From a virus (lineage: Duplodnaviria; Caudoviricetes), in the IMG/VR virus record IMGVR_UViG_3300021425_003554: DNA of 64,000 nucleotides, one strand, 5' to 3'. Both the position numbers and the translations under genes were made by a program. Positions 2,318 through 34,857 of the stretch are shown here, piece after piece; the stretch's first letter is position 1; each line of letters starts with the position of its first letter. The notes below the pieces were generated by a model. It worked only from the letters and a program-made list of their open reading frames with translations, searched no databases and had not been told where the DNA came from.

Positions 2318-2348
2318 TATTACTTCTTCTTTTTTGTTATAACAACAA

Positions 2349-2388
2349 AGAGCCCATGTATTTTAAAAGTACATGGGCTTTTTTTTAT
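2349..2388. terminator. intrinsic terminator between convergent genes
   Basis: AGCCCATGTA (2351-2360) / TACATGGGCT (2370-2379) stem followed by a T run. Confidence 0.8.
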
Positions 2389-2402: not shown

Positions 2403-2921
2403 TTATTTTTTGATCCACTCGGCGTATAATCTATTACCACTGTCTTCCAAAATTTCTTTCAGTGTAAAGTTATACTTGTCGCACCATTCTACATTTTTAT
2501 CAATCGACCACGGATAAAATCTCACAGATTCAACCCCTTTCCATGGGTGATCTCCCGTGCCTGGATTCTGTCTCCAGTATATTCTATCACCGGTATTGGT
2601 TATTCTTGATAACTTGGCTATTTGAAATTCCACTTCTTGTTCTGTTCCAAAATTTAAACTTCCGAGAGCAAAATATACGTTAAACTTTTTATGTGGCTCA
2701 TAATCTTCCCAACTTATAACCTCATCTGCATTGTCGTTGGCAGGATCTATACCATATAATCTATCACCTAATTTTTCTTTGAATAAATTATAACCACAAC
2801 CTATATCTAATATCTGATCAGTTTTATTAATTTTATCCAATAACGCCCATCCTGAATATTTAAATTTTGAATAATTGGGTTTCCAATTATCACGAAAATA
2901 ACTTGTTTCCATTTCGTTCAT
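2403..2921 (-). CDS. class I SAM-dependent methyltransferase-like protein
   Basis: Motif I ILDIGCGYN, YGIDP; overlaps the upstream gene by 4 nt. Confidence 0.7.
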   Translation of the reverse strand: MNEMETSYFRDNWKPNYSKFKYSGWALLDKINKTDQILDIGCGYNLFKEKLGDRLYGIDPANDNADEVISWEDYEPHKKFNVYFALGSLNFGTEQEVEFQIAKLSRITNTGDRIYWRQNPGTGDHPWKGVESVRFYPWSIDKNVEWCDKYNFTLKEILEDSGNRLYAEWIKK

Positions 2922-3568
2922 ATCCTTTTTTTAATTTCCTTCTGTAAAAGATTATTTGTTTTGTCACTTTTTACACCCGTGATGACCAACATGGGTCTTG
3001 GCTTGTTGCTGGCGTTTGCTGTGGCGTGTGGTAAGTTTTGCCAATCGAACGTGTGTATATCACCGGATCTCCATCTGTCAAACTGCTGGTTACCATACAT
3101 CAGGAACTGACCGGGTTCCCAATCCTGCAACATCACCATTACACGTATAACATTATTTGGATCAGCATCTAAATCATATAATTTGTCTATGTGCATATTC
3201 AATACCTCACCAGTAAATTGTATGTGTAACTTAGATTTTACCGGTTCCAAACAAAAGAAATCGGTCATTCTTTGTAGCGTGGGGCATTTTGAAAAATCTT
3301 TTAAACCTCTGTATATGGTCATTTTGGGATCTGCACCTGCTTTTATTAAATCATTTTCTTCTGCTTGTACATCACCATCTGGTCTACCTGTGCCTTCCCT
3401 ACGATTGGCCCAATTCAATGGTTTGGCATCATCGATCACCGATTGTATTTCTGTTTGCCAACCGCCAGTGAATTTACCTAGATGTTGTACGCAGTCGGTA
3501 TCCCGGTGCCATTTGTTGAAGTGGTAGTTACTTCTTGTTTTCGCATCTTCCCAATTACTTGTAGACAT
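2918..3568 (-). CDS. 2OG-Fe(II) oxygenase (Asp/Asn beta-hydroxylase-like cupin)
   Basis: HxD (MHID), distal His (PHATAN) and Arg (KPRPMLVITG). Confidence 0.75.
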   Translation of the reverse strand: MSTSNWEDAKTRSNYHFNKWHRDTDCVQHLGKFTGGWQTEIQSVIDDAKPLNWANRREGTGRPDGDVQAEENDLIKAGADPKMTIYRGLKDFSKCPTLQRMTDFFCLEPVKSKLHIQFTGEVLNMHIDKLYDLDADPNNVIRVMVMLQDWEPGQFLMYGNQQFDRWRSGDIHTFDWQNLPHATANASNKPRPMLVITGVKSDKTNNLLQKEIKKRI

Positions 3569-4151
3569 ATACCTTGATATCCTTGTTCGCGTAGTTATGT
3601 GTATGTATGCTGTCCCTAGGGCCTGGTTCTTTTATTCCCAGCACCCGGCACAGGTCGAAGTTGTCCACGGGACAGGTTATCCTGTCTAGGTTTTGCTGTA
3701 TGAACTGTGCAATATCTGTGTTTTGATCCTGTATGTGCGTCCACATCCGGTCTAAGTTCTCAAAGTATTGATAGTTGGGATATGTGATCGTGAATTCTCC
3801 ACACAATTTCCACCAGTCATAACACTCTAGGTTGTTCCTTCGAACAATCACTATAGGATATCCCAACACCTTCAATTCATTAAGTTGGTGTGCGAACGTG
3901 TGCGATTTTATGATCCTCTTGCCTGTGCCTGAGAATGGCTTGTCCCAATTTTCTTTTGAATTTTCAAACTCCATGCCTGGATCCCAGTATGCTCCTGTGT
4001 GCATGAGTTGTCTGTGTCCGGGGGTGTCGGCATCGTGCCAGTAGGTTCTCTGATCAGAATAGTCTGTGTGATCTATGTCATCACTCCAGTAGATGTTCTT
4101 GACCACACTGCTCCACTTTGATCCCGGCGCCCCTGTGAACAATATGTACAT
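3555..4151 (-). CDS. P-loop sulfotransferase-like protein
   Basis: N-terminal ILFTGAPGSKWSS loop, IIKSH and IVIVRRN motifs resemble 5'- and 3'-PSB elements but are divergent. Confidence 0.5.
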   Translation of the reverse strand: MYILFTGAPGSKWSSVVKNIYWSDDIDHTDYSDQRTYWHDADTPGHRQLMHTGAYWDPGMEFENSKENWDKPFSGTGKRIIKSHTFAHQLNELKVLGYPIVIVRRNNLECYDWWKLCGEFTITYPNYQYFENLDRMWTHIQDQNTDIAQFIQQNLDRITCPVDNFDLCRVLGIKEPGPRDSIHTHNYANKDIKVYVYK

Positions 4152-4153
4152 TG

Positions 4154-5230
4154 TTATTTGGTTAGTTGTTCCTTATAGACTGTGTTATATCCCAACTGAT
4201 TTTTTCCAAAATCGGTCAATGTTTTCAATGCTGTTGGTGTTATAAATGATTTCAGTGTTTTCACAGCGGCATCACCGTCTGTGCCTGTTCTCCATTTGTA
4301 TTTTCCAACATTCTTTTCGATTGCCTTTATAGATTCTGGATCGTTGATCATCCTATTCAGTGCATCAACCAATTTATCTTTATTTGGATTACCTCTGTTT
4401 ACCCAAAATGCTTTTTGTAAGGCATCTCTCCAACTTTTCACAAGTTTGTATGCATCATAAAAGTCACCGCTTGGTTCAACACCGTGCATTGACTGAAACA
4501 ACTCTTCGAATGTTGGTTCAGAAAAATTAGGATCTTTGTCGTGTTTGCCGGTATCAACATTTAATAACCCATGATGGAACCAAGTGATAGCATCTCCAGA
4601 CTCTATCACAGGTGTCACGTGTTTTTTATATGCGGCTGGATTTTCTCTCGTTGCGTTTAGATCTCCTCTACGAAACGCAAGTCTCCTCTCAGATCCGCTC
4701 ATGCCTTTTACCCATACAATTTTTTCATTCCACGTTTGTATTACGTCACCGTTTGGTCCTGCCAATAACATCACAATGGCCATTATTTCCGGTGTCATTC
4801 CCGAACCCGAAGGAAATTTGATAGGACCATTTGATAGGTCTGCATTATCACGAGCACCCACAATAATGTTCAAGTTCATTTGTCCAATCGATTCCCAATC
4901 AAAATAATTGTAATCGACCGGTTCCATTAGATATGATATACCGTTACCTCCATGAGATACCAATATTGTTTTATCATCAAATCTTAATGTGTTTTGAAAT
5001 TCGTTTGGACCCAGTTGGTCTCTGGCACCTGGTTTGTAGATGAGATTGATCTTCTCACCCAAGTGTTTCTCCCATTCGGCCACAACTATCTGTGCCCACA
5101 CAGAAGTTCCACCCGACGGGTTCTGTGGCACGATTAAATTGTAATCTGCTTTTGCAATTTTTCCAAACATCACTCCCACCACAAGTATGCCAACTAGTAT
5201 GGCACTTTTTATCATTCTTTTTTTAAGCAT
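4154..5230 (-). CDS. tctC: tripartite tricarboxylate transporter substrate-binding protein (TctC/Bug family)
   Basis: Signal peptide (GKIAKA/DY), LIVPQNPSGGTSVWAQ equivalent to the Bug P..pGG..D motif, YKPGA; directly follows tctA. Confidence 0.75.
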   Translation of the reverse strand: MLKKRMIKSAILVGILVVGVMFGKIAKADYNLIVPQNPSGGTSVWAQIVVAEWEKHLGEKINLIYKPGARDQLGPNEFQNTLRFDDKTILVSHGGNGISYLMEPVDYNYFDWESIGQMNLNIIVGARDNADLSNGPIKFPSGSGMTPEIMAIVMLLAGPNGDVIQTWNEKIVWVKGMSGSERRLAFRRGDLNATRENPAAYKKHVTPVIESGDAITWFHHGLLNVDTGKHDKDPNFSEPTFEELFQSMHGVEPSGDFYDAYKLVKSWRDALQKAFWVNRGNPNKDKLVDALNRMINDPESIKAIEKNVGKYKWRTGTDGDAAVKTLKSFITPTALKTLTDFGKNQLGYNTVYKEQLTK

Positions 5231-6659
5231 AATCTATCCTGTTTTTTCTTGTTATTCCGACCCATGTTATCATTATAACACAGAGTATTATAAAAATAAA
5301 GACCGGTCTTTGAAAAATTTCATCGACCGAATGTAACGATATCAATTGGTATGACAAGTTGTAAATTCTATCACTTAAAAGATAACCGATCAACAACGCC
5401 GGTCTGCTTATTTTCATATATTTACAACCTAAGCCCAAGGCAGAAAAAATTACCAAAGTGGCAAGATCTTCCCAACCGCCGGTGTACTGCATGGTTGCCC
5501 AAATAATGATTGCTATTATGAAAGGAAAATAATAGATGTATGGTAATTTTGTTATATATCCTGCGAAATAAGCCAATCCATAACAGATAAAAGCAGTGAT
5601 GATCGTTCCTGCCAGGAAGCCAAATGTCATACTATCAAATAGTTGAGTATCATAGAACGTGTCTGGTGATCCCAGATCTATTCCTATGTACAGAAATAAT
5701 CCCATCAGGATGGCGGCAAAAGGTGCTCCCGGTATGCCAAACAACACAGTGGGAATAAAGGACGAGGCCTTCTGTGCATTGTTGGCTCCCTCGGCTCCTA
5801 TCACTCCTCTCACATTTCCATTTCCAAATTTTTCGTTTGGGTTTGAAGCAACCGTGGCACCATAACTCAACCAATCTGCCATTGCTCCACCCAGTCCGGG
5901 CAGTAGTCCTATGAACGAACCTATGGCTCCTCCGCGTATGCTATCTTTCCAGCAATGTAAAGTGTCTTTTATCCCTTGTAAAATTCCTGACCAACTGCCT
6001 TTCAATGCCGCGGCATCTACTGTCTGTTTTCTTTTACGCCAACCTTCCCATAATTCTGGTATGGCAAAAAGTCCTGCCACGAACGGCAATATCTGTACTC
6101 CATCCTCAAGGTATCTCCAGCCCATTGTGAAACGTGGCACATTGTTGGCATCCACTCCCACTAGGCCTATCACGACACCTAATATTATGGCTAGTATGCT
6201 TCTGATGTAATGCTTGGTTGATAAAAAACCCACCGTGACAAAAGCCAAAACCACCAACGCCCATAATTCCGGTATTCCCATGTACATCACAATGTTGGTA
6301 TAGTAAGGCAAAAATAAAAATGTGAGAGAACCAAATATCAATCCGTTTAGGGTGCTGGATGTGATTGCGGCACTCAGGGCTCGTGATGCTTCGCCGTTTC
6401 TTGCCATGGGGAATCCATCCACCATGGTTGCGGCCGCTGAATTGGCACCGGGTATGCCCAACAGCACACCGCTGAAAGAATCACCCGTTGTCGAGGATGC
6501 CACAACTGCCACACAGAATATCACGCCCAGGTAGGGATCGGATACAAAATAAGGCATCACACCAAACAGTGCTATCAATCCTGTGGTGGCTCCCGCGGCC
6601 GGTATTATGCCAATTATCAATCCAAAAAATATTCCGGCAAATAAAAATATCAGTTCCAT
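5223..6659 (-). CDS. tctA: tripartite tricarboxylate transporter large permease (TctA family)
   Basis: Multi-TM protein with GIIPAAG, LLGIPGANSAAATMVDGFPMARNGEA..AL, GLLPGLGG, AEGANNA...SFIP...FGIPG. Confidence 0.92.
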   Translation of the reverse strand: MELIFLFAGIFFGLIIGIIPAAGATTGLIALFGVMPYFVSDPYLGVIFCVAVVASSTTGDSFSGVLLGIPGANSAAATMVDGFPMARNGEASRALSAAITSSTLNGLIFGSLTFLFLPYYTNIVMYMGIPELWALVVLAFVTVGFLSTKHYIRSILAIILGVVIGLVGVDANNVPRFTMGWRYLEDGVQILPFVAGLFAIPELWEGWRKRKQTVDAAALKGSWSGILQGIKDTLHCWKDSIRGGAIGSFIGLLPGLGGAMADWLSYGATVASNPNEKFGNGNVRGVIGAEGANNAQKASSFIPTVLFGIPGAPFAAILMGLFLYIGIDLGSPDTFYDTQLFDSMTFGFLAGTIITAFICYGLAYFAGYITKLPYIYYFPFIIAIIIWATMQYTGGWEDLATLVIFSALGLGCKYMKISRPALLIGYLLSDRIYNLSYQLISLHSVDEIFQRPVFIFIILCVIMITWVGITRKNRIDYA

Positions 6660-6661
6660 TT

Positions 6662-7069
6662 CTATTTTTTTCTTATCATGCTTCCGTGTACTCTCACTCT
6701 GATGTGTCCGTTATAATAATCATCAGACTCCAACACCTTTCGAGCAAACTGTTCTCTGGCTTCCACGTAAGATAGTTCACCTTTGTTCTTGCAATAAAAT
6801 AATATCTCCCTGGTGAATTTATCGTTTCCTATTTTTTGTATGTCTTCCAGCAATGCATCACTGGAACCGTAATAATCTCTCCAATCGGAATCTACCTTGA
6901 ATCTTCTTTTATTTTTTCTGCCTTTTAACGGAGGTCTAGATCTTTTAAATTTTGCTAATTTTTTGCCAATATATTTCTTACCATTGGTTGTATTTGTTAT
7001 CTCGTACACAAATCCAACACAATCGTTTGGTAATTCATCGACCGGTTTTCCTTCAAACATCCACTGCAT
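6662..7069 (-). CDS. GIY-YIG-superfamily conserved T4-like phage protein
   Basis: GFVYEITNTTNGKKYIGKK, DWRDYYGSS, E.REQF; probable start MQWMFEG at 7069, just after a minus-strand TAAATA (7075-7080). Confidence 0.7.
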   Translation of the reverse strand: MQWMFEGKPVDELPNDCVGFVYEITNTTNGKKYIGKKLAKFKRSRPPLKGRKNKRRFKVDSDWRDYYGSSDALLEDIQKIGNDKFTREILFYCKNKGELSYVEAREQFARKVLESDDYYNGHIRVRVHGSMIRKK

Positions 7070-7124
7070 GATGGTATTTAAACTCAATACTGTTCACCGA
7101 ATTTTATTTGATTGTTATATAGTA

Positions 7125-7570
7125 GTGATAGGCAACAGTATCTATCCGACAGGCAAAATCAAAAAAATATTTAGGCAAACATAGCATCGCAACCAGTGAG
7201 CAAGGAAATGCGGCTAACAAGCGACAGGTGAATCCTTTGATGCAAACGGCAAAAAATGATGGGGCTCTTAGAAAAAGTTAAACCCCAGGTTTACCAAAAA
7301 CTATTATGCAAGGGTTTGGTAGGCTCGCGTTGTAATGAATGAGCAAATGGGTACAGCACAACCGCCCAACCACGGTAGCGATGTATAGTGACTGCGAACT
7401 CACCACAGGGTTCAAGTCGGTTCGGCTAGAAATAGCCGAATTGTGACTGCTCATCTACCACAGGGGACGCATAAATGCGTCGTTCCGCAAATGTAACTAC
7501 TGCGTAAAGCGTAAATTAAAAAAAAGAAACGAGCGTAAGCGAAGTTTCAGATGGCTGTAAGCCATCTTTG
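7125..7570 (+). ncRNA. candidate large structured ncRNA (ROOL-like, unverified)
   Basis: ~450 nt with no ORF covering it; at least 8 hairpins or stems including GNRA loops, a long-range CATCGC/GCGATG pair, an internal direct repeat, an extended -10-like TGTTATATA upstream and a terminal hairpin at 7549-7567. Confidence 0.65.
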
Positions 7571-7572
7571 TA

Positions 7573-8364
7573 ATGAAGTTAAGTAACAATATGCAACTAT
7601 TGTTCGATCACACCCTGGGAAAACAAGAACACACTGACCTAGTGCTGTGTCGTCCCATGGCAATCGTGGATGACACCGAAGAAGTTGAAGCACTGTGCGA
7701 GGGTTGGCTGGCATTGGATCACCCGATCAAAAAACAGGAAGTTTTTTATCAATCACGTAGCACACGCATAAACCTGGATGAATACAAACCTAGGTACAAA
7801 AAGCACGAATGGCAAGGACAACCCATAGAGATCAAAATAATCGATGCCAGCGAGATGGTGAAACTGTTGGGTCTGCCACACATCTATAAACAATACATGA
7901 CCAGAAAAAAATTTACGCAGGATTACGATCCTTTCCTACACTATAACAAACGGGATCAATTCATGCTGTTCTACATCGGTACAGCGGACAACATCGTGGG
8001 ATTCACCAAACAGAAAAGATATCGATATCAAGAGGACAACTACATTGCCCAATTGGGCGACGATCTGTTGGATCTCGCTGGGTTGGAATCCGTGATACAC
8101 GCCAACACTGTGCCCATATCATTGATCACCCTGGACATGGAAATACTCTGGGCCAGTGAACACAATGTTTCTTATTTTTACATGGGATCCGGGTACGAAG
8201 CCAGTTCCGTGTATAAATCGAACTATCGTGGATTCGAATGGTGGACGGGCACCGAATGGAGCAAGGACAAAAAACTATACAGGAGTCTATGCAAGAGAGA
8301 TTCTAGGATCGAGACTTTAAAGGATGTCGCCATGCTCCCGTCACTGATTCGAGATGACTCTTAG
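7573..8364 (+). CDS. ATE/Bpt-like aminoacyl-tRNA-protein transferase
   Basis: N-terminal EALCEGW...FYQSRSTRINL..YKP and C-terminal ILWASEHNVSYFYMGSGYE...YKSNYRGFEW match the layout of ATE_N/ATE_C; start may be MQLLF at 7591. Confidence 0.65.
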   Translation: MKLSNNMQLLFDHTLGKQEHTDLVLCRPMAIVDDTEEVEALCEGWLALDHPIKKQEVFYQSRSTRINLDEYKPRYKKHEWQGQPIEIKIIDASEMVKLLGLPHIYKQYMTRKKFTQDYDPFLHYNKRDQFMLFYIGTADNIVGFTKQKRYRYQEDNYIAQLGDDLLDLAGLESVIHANTVPISLITLDMEILWASEHNVSYFYMGSGYEASSVYKSNYRGFEWWTGTEWSKDKKLYRSLCKRDSRIETLKDVAMLPSLIRDDS

Positions 8365-34826: not shown

Positions 34827-34857
34827 TTGACAGATTTCCTTTTTCGTGTTATAAATA
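34827..34857 (+). promoter_or_regulatory. sigma70 promoter overlapping a late promoter
   Basis: TTGACA (34827)-N17-TATAAAT, with TATAAATA at 34850-34857. Confidence 0.8.

What the first reader, a model, noticed from the sequence alone, without database searches (positions are those of the whole stretch)
4154..6659. Phage-encoded tripartite tricarboxylate transporter (TctA+TctC) with no visible TctB
Seen: intact TctA (478 aa) and signal-peptide-bearing TctC (358 aa) overlap by 8 nt inside a tightly coupled six-gene minus-strand run that starts after a TAAATA late-type motif; no small 4-TM TctB is present. Established: TTT systems are ion-coupled importers of carboxylates and some sulfonates or aromatics, usually with three components. 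Inference: the phage may install its own solute uptake system during infection, borrowing host TctB or working without it. A complete secondary transporter plus binding protein is an unusual auxiliary gene set.
Basis: partly seen in the sequence, partly recalled or inferred. Interest (0 to 1): 0.75.

Follow-up and report, generated by a model that had tools for sequence, protein, structure and literature searches.

The report
Phage TctA/TctC-like importer lacking TctB
An uncultured aquatic giant T4-like phage carries a tricarboxylate-type membrane permease and a matching periplasmic binding protein but not the usual third subunit. The pair is kept under purifying selection in about a hundred distinct related phage contigs, so it is a real viral uptake module whose cargo is still unknown.

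Summary
ORF 5223-6659(-) is a full-length TctA permease (Pfam E 6.7e-92). ORF 4154-5230(-) overlaps it by 8 nt and is a signal-peptide-bearing binding protein. It misses the Pfam TctC model, but a family profile (Bug/TctC structures, E 8e-22) and its fold (pLDDT 94; top 17 PDB hits all TctC/Bug) place it in the TctC superfamily.

No TctB-like gene was found in the 64-kb window, near the pair in 155 related loci, or in five related viral records of 72-172 kb.

The locus is not chimeric. Independent assemblies repeat it between phage core genes. About 100 distinct pairs exist, dN/dS is 0.05-0.13, and metatranscriptome contigs cover both genes.

Viral TctAs form one clade. Its nearest sampled cellular relatives (33-35% identity) are TctA-TctB fusions preceded by the same long binding-protein type, so the phage lineage lacks the B part.

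The pair is the core of a conserved cassette with sulfotransferase-like, hydroxylase-like and methyltransferase-like genes. segE is a sporadic mobile insertion. The "late promoter" is unsupported.

Most likely this is a TctB-independent importer of an unknown small anion, made during infection of a Gram-negative host. Transport itself is untested.

The scan has flagged the same module in at least 21 other phage genomes. The literature I could search holds only a passing tctA mention (Roux 2014).

The parts
5223..6659 (-). tctA: 478-aa TTT-type permease without a fused or separate TctB part
   Evidence: Pfam PF01970 E 6.7e-92, full profile. The duplicated G-x3-G-x3-G-x2-P-G-x-G motif is perfect at residues 243-257 (TM7) and reads G9..G13..G17..P20-A-A-G23 in TM1 (motif from PMC5812351). 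dN/dS 0.05-0.11.
4154..5230 (-). Divergent TctC-superfamily periplasmic solute-binding protein, 358 aa, with a cleavable signal peptide
   Evidence: No Pfam hit. Family profile A1 hits Bug/TctC structures (2dvz 7.9e-22, BugD 2.7e-21). AF2 pLDDT 94. Top 17 Foldseek PDB hits are all TctC/Bug, and the top Swiss-Prot hits are UPF0065/Bug proteins. dN/dS 0.05-0.13.
5223..5230 (-). 8-nt overlap of the tctA stop with the SBP start (translational coupling)
   Evidence: The same -8 geometry occurs in 146 of 155 related loci.
3555..4151 (-). Sulfotransferase-like P-loop protein (198 aa), a conserved cassette member
   Evidence: No Pfam or PHROG hit. AF2 pLDDT 92. Best VIA matches are sulfotransferases (TPST1 Z 9.5, rmsd 3.7, 151 aligned), just above nucleotide kinases at Z <=7.7. 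Atlas leads point to Sulfotransfer_3 viral clusters. Linked to tctA/SBP in about 90 of 100 distinct loci.
2918..3568 (-). Asp/Arg-hydroxylase-like (cupin, 2OG-oxygenase-like) protein, 216 aa; a facultative cassette member
   Evidence: Atlas lead only: PF05118 on 25% of one neighbouring cluster. Present in about half of the distinct loci.
2403..2921 (-). Class I SAM-methyltransferase-like protein, 172 aa, a conserved cassette member
   Evidence: Weak Methyltransf_23 hit at E 0.021. Atlas leads to Methyltransf_11/23/25 clusters. Linked to the pair also in the 55-60% identity clade.
6662..7087 (-). segE-type GIY-YIG homing endonuclease (likely start ATG at 7069): a mobile insertion directly upstream of tctA, not part of the conserved cassette
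   Evidence: Pfam PF19835 E 2.6e-38. Present in only about 7 of 100 distinct loci.
2347..2383 (.). Palindromic 17-bp hairpin with T/A runs on both sides: terminator at the end of the run

Best explanation
This is a phage-encoded, two-component derivative of a tripartite tricarboxylate transporter (TTT).

Proposed mechanism:
1. During infection of a Gram-negative host, the phage makes a TctA permease that inserts into the inner membrane.
2. From the translationally coupled next gene it makes a Sec-exported TctC-like binding protein.
3. That protein captures a small organic anion in the periplasm and hands it to TctA for ion-gradient-driven import.

The small TctB subunit is not needed. The nearest sampled cellular relatives carry it as a C-terminal fusion on TctA, and the phage lineage lacks that part.

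The pair is the core of a conserved viral cassette that also holds a sulfotransferase-like, a hydroxylase-like and a methyltransferase-like gene. The imported compound probably serves or is processed by these enzymes.

Shown: gene identity, fold, viral ownership, conservation, purifying selection and the absence of a recognisable TctB.
Inferred: direction of transport, TctB independence, timing and the link to the enzymes. The ligand is unknown.
For: Identity of the parts:
- TctA is full length, with family motifs.
- The SBP is a TctC-superfamily member by profile and by fold. 17 of 67 family members weakly hit Pfam TctC.
- The SBP has a signal peptide.

Conservation and viral ownership:
- The 8-nt overlap is kept in 146 of 155 loci.
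- IMG/VR holds 170 SBP and 93 TctA stretches, giving about 100 distinct pairs.
- dN/dS is 0.05-0.13 even where dS exceeds 1.3.
- Viral TctAs form one clade with 100/100 support.

Cellular relatives:
- The nearest in a 301-genome Pseudomonadota sample are 33-35% identical and 653-679 aa long. The two examined have a 4-TM C-terminal extension.
- The one of these that hit Pfam TctB scored E 5.7e-6, 27 bits against a 29.1-bit cut-off.
- All seven are preceded by a long SBP 25-28% identical to the phage SBP.
- Another cellular relative of the SBP sits in an SBP-TctA-TctB operon.

No TctB:
- None in the window, none within 4 kb of the pair in 155 loci, and none in five viral records of 72-172 kb.

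Binding site: the pincer-loop motif is strictly kept in viral SBPs as P-Q-x-P-(S/G)-G-G-T-(S/T).

Expression: metatranscriptome contigs from 4 runs cover both genes at 95-99% identity, and one contig spans the junction.

Complex prediction for TctA with the mature SBP gave weak support:
- Score 0.54, best control 0.01. Runs agree in at least 87% of contacts, and partner pLDDT is at least 83.
- The mark was reached by 51 of 78 solved complexes and 2 of 108 mismatched pairs.
- A score of 0.60 or under was seen in only 5 of those 78, and in all 4 of the 180 mismatches that passed.
- No TctA structure is in the PDB, so the score is not recalled from a solved complex.
Against: - No transport, ligand or expression-timing data exist.
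- RNA-library contigs can contain DNA.
- TctB is poorly conserved, so a very divergent or distant tctB elsewhere in this roughly 300+ kb genome cannot be excluded. The window's own assembly is not held, and the related records are at most 47% complete.
- In TRAP transporters the analogous small subunit is essential (PMC5812351), so loss of TctB could in principle disable transport.
- The SBP lacks the family's conserved Asp in the pincer motif (S43), so the ligand may not be a classical carboxylate.
- The cellular sampling was limited to 301 Pseudomonadota and 251 Bacteroidota genomes.
Confidence: 0.6

Rival explanations
1. The phage pair is a true importer but depends on a TctB supplied by the host's own TTT system, forming a hybrid phage-host transporter.
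For: Cellular relatives have TctB, either separate or fused. TTT systems are common in the Pseudomonadota sampled: 75 of 301 genomes had matches, often several each.
Against: Viral TctA is at most 35% identical to any cellular TctA found. TctB is the least conserved subunit and is expected to co-evolve with its TctA (PMC5812351). The viral clade spans marine, estuarine, salt-marsh and freshwater samples, and MAG-binned copies carry labels from several phyla, so a universally compatible host TctB is unlikely. In the nearest relatives TctB is fused in cis, which would make it unavailable to a foreign TctA.
Confidence: 0.15
2. The pair does not serve nutrient import. It might act as an exporter or exchanger, as a periplasmic sensor, or as a membrane-remodelling or superinfection-exclusion device that merely reuses the TTT scaffold.
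For: The ligand is unknown. The SBP pincer motif is altered (D to S/T) and several Arg residues are invariant. TctB is absent. Related phages have a near-invariant 32-nt element in the tctA leader, which suggests specific regulation.
Against: Both proteins keep full-length family architecture and the binding-loop geometry under strong purifying selection. Binding-protein-dependent secondary transporters characterised so far work as importers (own knowledge; the review PMC5812351 treats them as uptake systems). Tight translational coupling of permease and SBP is the hallmark of an uptake system.
Confidence: 0.12
3. The locus is host DNA: a chimeric assembly, a recently captured passenger, or a decaying gene pair without function for the phage.
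For: Eight copies lie on contigs binned into bacterial MAGs. The flanks of L160 (YcaO, Fe-S/CCG protein) are not clearly viral.
Against: The same arrangement lies between gp46 and other phage genes in independent assemblies from different samples. GC content is no different from the neighbours. dN/dS is about 0.1. No cellular homologue above 35% identity was found in 552 genomes. The MAG copies come from several unrelated phyla, interleave with viral contigs in the tree, and carry the same viral cassette genes. L156 is flanked by PhoH.
Confidence: 0.03

Closest known systems
TctCBA of Salmonella enterica and the TTT family (TC 2.A.80), with Bug/TctC binding proteins such as BugD, BugE, Bug27, AdpC, MatC and TphC
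   Same: A TctA permease with the duplicated Gly/Pro motif. A two-lobed periplasmic binding protein of the same fold with a related pincer loop. Adjacent, co-oriented genes.
   Different: No TctB. Gene order is A-C instead of C-B-A. The SBP is about 30 residues longer and fails the Pfam TctC model, and its signature P-F-x-A-G-G-x-x-D reads P-Q-N-P-S-G-G-T-S. The pair is encoded by a phage.
Uncharacterised cellular subfamily in Pseudomonadota: long SBP (roughly 365-395 aa) followed by a 653-679-aa TctA with a fused TctB-like C-terminus (loci L166-L172)
   Same: These are the nearest sampled relatives of both phage proteins (TctA 33-35%, SBP 25-28% identity). They share the long SBP type that Pfam TctC misses, and they are sister to the viral clade in the tree.
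   Different: Gene order is C-A. A 4-TM TctB-like domain is fused to TctA. The genomic context is cellular, with PrpF downstream in 2 of 7.
SlcHFG-type TTT systems (sulfolactate importers) with tctB downstream of tctA, as described in PMC5812351
   Same: A non-canonical position of the B subunit after A, as in the cellular relatives of the phage pair. Sulfur-related neighbours (sulfotransferase-like here, APS-kinase-like in the distant viral clade) make a sulfonate-type cargo conceivable.
   Different: SlcHFG keeps TctB.
Orphan TctA homologues of archaea (no TctB, no TctC), discussed by Winnen 2003 as cited in PMC5812351
   Same: A precedent that TctA may be the core transporter and TctB an accessory.
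   Different: These lack a binding protein, whereas the phage keeps one. Their function is also untested.
Phage auxiliary uptake genes such as cyanophage pstS (own knowledge), and the 'tctA, domain hit only' AMG in SUP05 viral contigs (Roux 2014, PMC4164917)
   Same: Virus-encoded components of host nutrient uptake. tctA has been listed once as a viral AMG.
   Different: pstS supplies only a binding protein to a host ABC transporter. Here both permease and binding protein are viral. The 2014 report did not describe the SBP, the missing TctB or the cassette.

Membership tests
TctA permease family (Pfam PF01970) | Full-length match to the TctA model above the curated cut-off | tested here: met
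   308.8 bits against a 28.9-bit cut-off, covering profile positions 1-422 of 423.
TctA permease family (Pfam PF01970) | Duplicated motif G-Hy3-G-Hy3-G-Hy2-P-G-Hy-G in TM1 and TM7 (PMC5812351) | tested here: met
   The TM7 copy is exact (G243..G247..G251..P254-G255-L-G257). The TM1 copy has P20-A-A-G23 in place of P-G-x-G. These positions are invariant in viral alignment A2.
TctC / Bug solute-binding protein family (Pfam PF03401) | Match to the Pfam TctC model | tested here: not met
   No hit even at E<=10. Only 17 of 67 relatives hit it, all weakly (best 1.5e-7).
TctC / Bug solute-binding protein family (Pfam PF03401) | Homology to and fold of solved TctC/Bug proteins | tested here: met
   Family profile against PDB: 2dvz 7.9e-22, BugD 2.7e-21, MatC 2.4e-18. 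The AF2 model (pLDDT 94) has all of its top 17 Foldseek hits in TctC/Bug, TM by target 0.57-0.69.
TctC / Bug solute-binding protein family (Pfam PF03401) | Pincer-loop signature P-F-x-A-G-G-x-x-D in domain 1 | tested here: inconclusive
   The phage motif is P35-Q-N-P-S-G-G-T-S43. The Pro and one Gly are kept, and the Asp is replaced by Ser/Thr in all 97 viral copies. The review notes hydroxyl substitutions in some Bugs.
TctC / Bug solute-binding protein family (Pfam PF03401) | Export to the periplasm (signal peptide) | tested here: met
   Hydrophobic segment at residues 4-29 followed by A-K-A|D, with no Cys. This is read from the sequence; no dedicated predictor was run.
Tripartite tricarboxylate transporter system (TC 2.A.80) | Presence of the 4-TM TctB subunit, separate or fused | tested here: not met
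   No multi-TM ORF other than tctA in the 64 kb window. None beside the pair in 155 loci. PF07331 is absent from five related viral records. The phage TctA ends where the fused TctB part of cellular relatives begins. The rest of this genome could not be searched.
Tripartite tricarboxylate transporter system (TC 2.A.80) | Binding-protein-dependent, ion-gradient-driven uptake of a carboxylate | not testable with these tools
   Needs transport assays.
Sulfotransferase fold (for neighbour 3555-4151) | Fold similarity and a PAPS-binding 5'-PSB loop | tested here: inconclusive
   VIA Z 9.5-8.5 to four sulfotransferases, against 7.7 or less for nucleotide kinases. Foldseek found nothing below E 0.1. 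The loop G7-A-P-G-S-K-W-S14 is largely invariant: G7, P9, G10, S11, W13 and S14.

The most novel reading that the evidence does not exclude
The viral pair is a naturally TctB-independent binding-protein-dependent secondary transporter. It is also the entry step of a phage-encoded 'import and tailor' pathway. In that pathway an extracellular metabolite is taken up and then sulfated, hydroxylated and/or methylated by the three co-inherited enzymes, or the imported anion feeds their cofactor supply, to benefit phage replication in aquatic giant phages.
Probability: 0.25. Interest if true: 0.8.

Novelty: new variant of a known kind. Interest (0 to 1): 0.6.

Why it matters
Phages are known to carry single uptake components such as pstS. 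A complete permease plus binding protein, inherited as a unit across a large clade of uncultured aquatic giant phages, would mean these viruses change what an infected cell takes up from the water.

For transporter biology it offers a natural experiment on an open question. The function of TctB is unknown and its necessity is debated (PMC5812351). Here is a long-lived lineage, under strong purifying selection, that has only A and C, while its nearest sampled cellular relatives have B fused to A.

Expressing the phage pair, and truncating the cellular fusion, would test directly whether TctB is dispensable.

Tried and rejected
- Megablast of the locus against GenBank phages found nothing. tblastn of the SBP found nothing. 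tblastn of TctA gave only 29-35% hits, in unannotated faecal 'Bacteriophage sp.' fragments and in records that are bacterial or tiny. No cultured-phage relative was found, though the window's own record may be masked.
- PHROGs gave no family for TctA, the SBP or the three enzymes.
- The window's own assembly is not held, so tctB could not be sought in the rest of the genome.
- Small multi-TM ORFs 1-4 kb upstream of tctA in some related loci were rejected as TctB. By composition they look like antisense frames of real genes, apart from one 200-aa ORF that looks YhhQ-like.
- The genome-contig scan with the SBP alignment failed because no conserved stretch was long enough.
- A Bacteroidota sample of 251 genomes gave no match at E<=1e-40 apart from the MAG contig itself.
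- The TATAAATA late promoter is not enriched (5 found, 5.3 expected) and none lies before this run. Sigma-70-like hits in the region are only modestly above the shuffle mean (23 against 16.6, sd 4.0) and were not used.
- Foldseek on the 198-aa neighbour gave nothing below E 0.1, and its family profile found no PDB relative.
- No Rfam family matched in three related loci.
- Depth differences between genes in the RNA-run contigs were not used, because the tool warns they cannot rank genes. Stretches without cover mean nothing.
- The context of cellular relatives (PrpF in 2 of 7, otherwise varied) gave no usable ligand prediction.
Full report
WHAT IS THERE

The window is part of a T4-type myovirus. 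It encodes the following:
- a gp46/Rad50-like ATPase (268-2037)
- a T4 baseplate protein
- a tail sheath and a sheath stabiliser
- a T4-type large terminase
- gp32
- a UvsX/RecA protein

The best relatives of the UvsX are jumbo phages at 61-70% identity: Atu_ph07, Phosso, Vibrio phage 2.275.O, CBB and GAP32. Related contigs that carry the same transporter genes reach 172 kb at 47% estimated completeness, and 283-328 kb for the more distant clade. The phage is therefore probably a giant phage.

Inside this context lies ORF 5223-6659(-), a full-length TctA permease:
- Pfam PF01970 at 308.8 bits, covering profile positions 1-422 of 423.
- The duplicated Gly/Pro motif of the family is exact in the second half. 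The first half reads P-A-A-G in place of P-G-x-G (motif from PMC5812351).

ORF 4154-5230(-) starts 8 nt before the tctA stop. It has a signal peptide ending A-K-A|D and no lipobox.

IS THE SECOND GENE A TctC?

Pfam says nothing, even at E<=10. An exhaustive search of 1.84 billion representative proteins found 448 relatives. I built an alignment of 67 full-length ones (A1):
- 17 of the 67 weakly hit Pfam TctC.
- Its profile matches solved Bug/TctC proteins: 2dvz 7.9e-22, BugD 2.7e-21, MatC 2.4e-18, and also TBP, TphC, Bug27 and AdpC.

An AlphaFold2 model built on that alignment has pLDDT 94 and pTM 0.89:
- Its 17 best Foldseek hits in the PDB are all TctC/Bug proteins.
- Most of its best Swiss-Prot hits are UPF0065/Bug proteins.

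The protein is thus a divergent, somewhat longer member of the TctC superfamily.

The family's pincer-loop signature P-F-x-A-G-G-x-x-D reads P-Q-N-P-S-G-G-T-S here. That form, with Ser/Thr in place of Asp, is essentially fixed in all 97 distinct viral copies. Several invariant arginines are fixed too.

IS TctB REALLY MISSING?

- In the 64-kb window the only credible multi-TM ORF is tctA.
- In 155 related loci no ORF with three or more hydrophobic segments lies beside the pair. The few candidates 1-4 kb away look like antisense artefacts, apart from one YhhQ-like 200-aa protein.
- The Pfam TctB model finds nothing in five related viral records of 72-172 kb.
- The rest of this phage's genome is not held. 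A distant or unrecognisable tctB therefore cannot be excluded.

IS IT VIRAL, REAL AND USED?

- IMG/VR holds 170 stretches that encode a relative of the SBP and 93 that encode a relative of TctA. Together they give about 100 distinct pairs.
- Independent assemblies repeat the window's synteny with gp46 and other phage genes.
- The 8-nt overlap is kept in 146 of 155 loci.
- Base composition is unremarkable.
- Pairwise dN/dS is 0.05-0.13 for both genes, from near-identical pairs up to pairs with dS above 1.3.
- Near-identical DNA occurs in marine, seawater, estuary, salt-marsh and freshwater metagenomes from 20 studies.
- Contigs assembled from four metatranscriptome runs cover both genes at 95-99% identity, and one spans the junction. 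This is weak evidence of transcription, because RNA libraries can contain DNA.

WHERE DOES IT COME FROM?

The best 120 database relatives of TctA (56-98% identity) that I inspected sit in phage-like contexts.

Eight copies lie on contigs binned into MAGs labelled Legionellales, Polynucleobacter, Omnitrophota, Ignavibacteriaceae, Weeksellaceae and others. Several points argue that they are viral:
- Most of them carry the same neighbouring viral genes.
- L156 is flanked by PhoH.
- In a maximum-likelihood tree they interleave with viral contigs inside one clade supported 100/100.

Most are therefore probably mis-binned viral DNA. L160 is not resolved.

In samples of 301 Pseudomonadota and 251 Bacteroidota genomes, no cellular TctA exceeds 35% identity. 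The closest ones (33-35%) are sister to the viral clade, and they have three features:
- They are 653-679 aa long. The two I examined have a 4-TM C-terminal extension. In one of those two it matches Pfam TctB at E 5.7e-6 over positions 5-125 of 137, just under the curated cut-off.
- All seven are preceded on the same strand by a long SBP that is 25-28% identical to the phage SBP over its whole length.
- A further cellular relative of the SBP lies in an SBP-TctA-TctB operon.

The most economical reading is that a phage ancestor acquired the pair from this TTT subfamily, and that the B part was left behind or lost. The two-gene version has since been maintained for a very long time. This rests on limited sampling and an unrooted comparison.

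THE CASSETTE AROUND IT

It ends at a strong palindromic hairpin at 2347-2383. Its parts differ in status.

The segE-type GIY-YIG gene (6662-7087) is present in only about 7 of 100 distinct loci. It is a mobile insertion upstream of tctA.

The three genes after the SBP are co-inherited with the pair:
- The arrangement tctA-SBP-o198-(o216)-o172 accounts for about 64 of 100 distinct loci.
- Permuted orders occur in the rest, and also in the distant 55-60% identity clade.

What the three genes look like:
- o198 (3555-4151) folds confidently (pLDDT 92). Its best structural matches are sulfotransferases (TPST1 Z 9.5, rmsd 3.7, 151 aligned; three more at Z 8.5-8.9), just above nucleotide kinases at 7.7 or less. 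This agrees with the language-model leads, but it is not decisive.
- o172 is methyltransferase-like.
- o216 is Asp/Arg-hydroxylase-like by a lead only.
- Distant-clade loci add an APS-kinase-like gene.

The claimed late promoter is not supported. The hexamer TAAATA lies 5 nt before the likely segE start. Full TATAAATA is not enriched and is absent here.

HOW IT MOST LIKELY WORKS

The anatomy is that of a binding-protein-dependent secondary importer: a coupled permease and a secreted binding protein, both intact and constrained.

A complex prediction for TctA with the mature SBP gave weak support:
- Score 0.54, best control 0.01.
- The runs agree in at least 87% of contacts, and partner pLDDT is at least 83.
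- The mark was reached by 51 of 78 solved complexes and 2 of 108 mismatched pairs.
- A score of 0.60 or under was seen in only 5 of those 78, and in all 4 of the 180 mismatches that passed.
- No TctA structure exists in the PDB, so the score is not recalled from a solved complex.

Given the strong prior from gene arrangement, I take this as mild corroboration.

I put about 0.6 on a TctB-independent importer of an unidentified small anion. It would be made in a Gram-negative host, since the SBP has a cleavable signal peptide and no lipid anchor. Borrowing a host TctB gets about 0.15. It is disfavoured for three reasons:
- The viral TctA is very distant from any cellular one.
- TctB is the least conserved subunit.
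- The nearest relatives carry TctB in cis.

A role other than import gets about 0.12, and a host artefact about 0.03.

The cargo cannot be named. The altered pincer loop, the invariant arginines and the sulfur-related neighbours hint at something other than a plain di- or tricarboxylate. That is speculation.

WHAT IS KNOWN

The searchable literature mentions viral tctA once, as a 'protein domain hit only' AMG on SUP05 viral contigs with unknown role (PMC4164917). That mention is repeated in a review (PMC6359870). I found nothing on a viral TctC-like partner, on the missing TctB or on the cassette.

The TTT review states that TctB function is unknown, that TctAB fusions are rare, and that archaeal TctA occurs without B or C (PMC5812351).

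Within this scan the same module has been flagged in at least 21 other phage genomes, and two follow-ups reached similar conclusions. I did not rely on them.

VERDICT

It is a new variant of a known kind. It is of moderate to high interest for phage ecology, and it is a natural test of whether TctB is needed.

Noticed in passing
Related loci, e.g. L084:7942-8016, L047:6510-6584 (alignment A4); not in the window: In phages without segE, a near-invariant 32-nt element (TTGTTGTAACGCTCCCAnGGAAGTTCACAACA, then a CCCCAAA tract) lies 25-35 nt before the tctA ATG. Its 9-nt core occurs 88 times in 1.96 Mb of fetched loci, almost always at this spot. It forms an imperfect hairpin with one compensatory pair and has no Rfam match. 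It may be a tctA-specific leader RNA or an operator.
   Followed up: partly
window 6662-7087 (-): The segE-type GIY-YIG gene directly upstream of tctA is present in only about 7 of 100 distinct related loci. It is a mobile insertion that replaced or displaced the conserved tctA leader.
   Followed up: partly
L005 / G001 (IMGVR_UViG_3300040807_003453) compared with window 4154-6659: Relative to the window, tctA has dS 0.065 but the adjacent SBP gene has dS 0.81. A recombination breakpoint therefore lies at or near the gene junction, and the binding-protein allele has been swapped.
   Followed up: partly
L084:3798-4406 and L145:4467-5069: A 200-aa multi-TM ORF about 3.5 kb upstream of tctA in related phages looks by eye like a YhhQ-type queuosine-precursor transporter, a possible second phage-borne transporter. 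No family search was run.
   Followed up: no
L150 and L153 (distant clade, contigs up to 283-328 kb): The distant viral clade places an APS-kinase-like 151-aa gene, DUF6552, a SufB/D-like gene and a radical SAM gene near tctA-SBP. Together with the sulfotransferase-like gene, this gives a possible sulfur theme.
   Followed up: no
L166-L172 (Pseudomonadota genomes): This is a cellular TTT subfamily in which a long SBP that Pfam TctC misses precedes a 653-679-aa TctA. The two I examined carry a 4-TM C-terminal extension. One of those two matched Pfam TctB, just under the cut-off. TctAB fusions were described as rare in the 2018 review.
   Followed up: partly
window 10304, 20448, 22975(-), 54315: Four of the five TATAAATA octamers lie within about 80 nt upstream of ORF starts (10372, 20463, 22958, 54394), so a T4-type late promoter is probably used by this phage, although the count is not above chance. 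The fifth, at 34850, was not assigned to a gene.
   Followed up: no
RNA-run contig depth in one run was highest at 7201-7600. I did not examine it.
   Followed up: no
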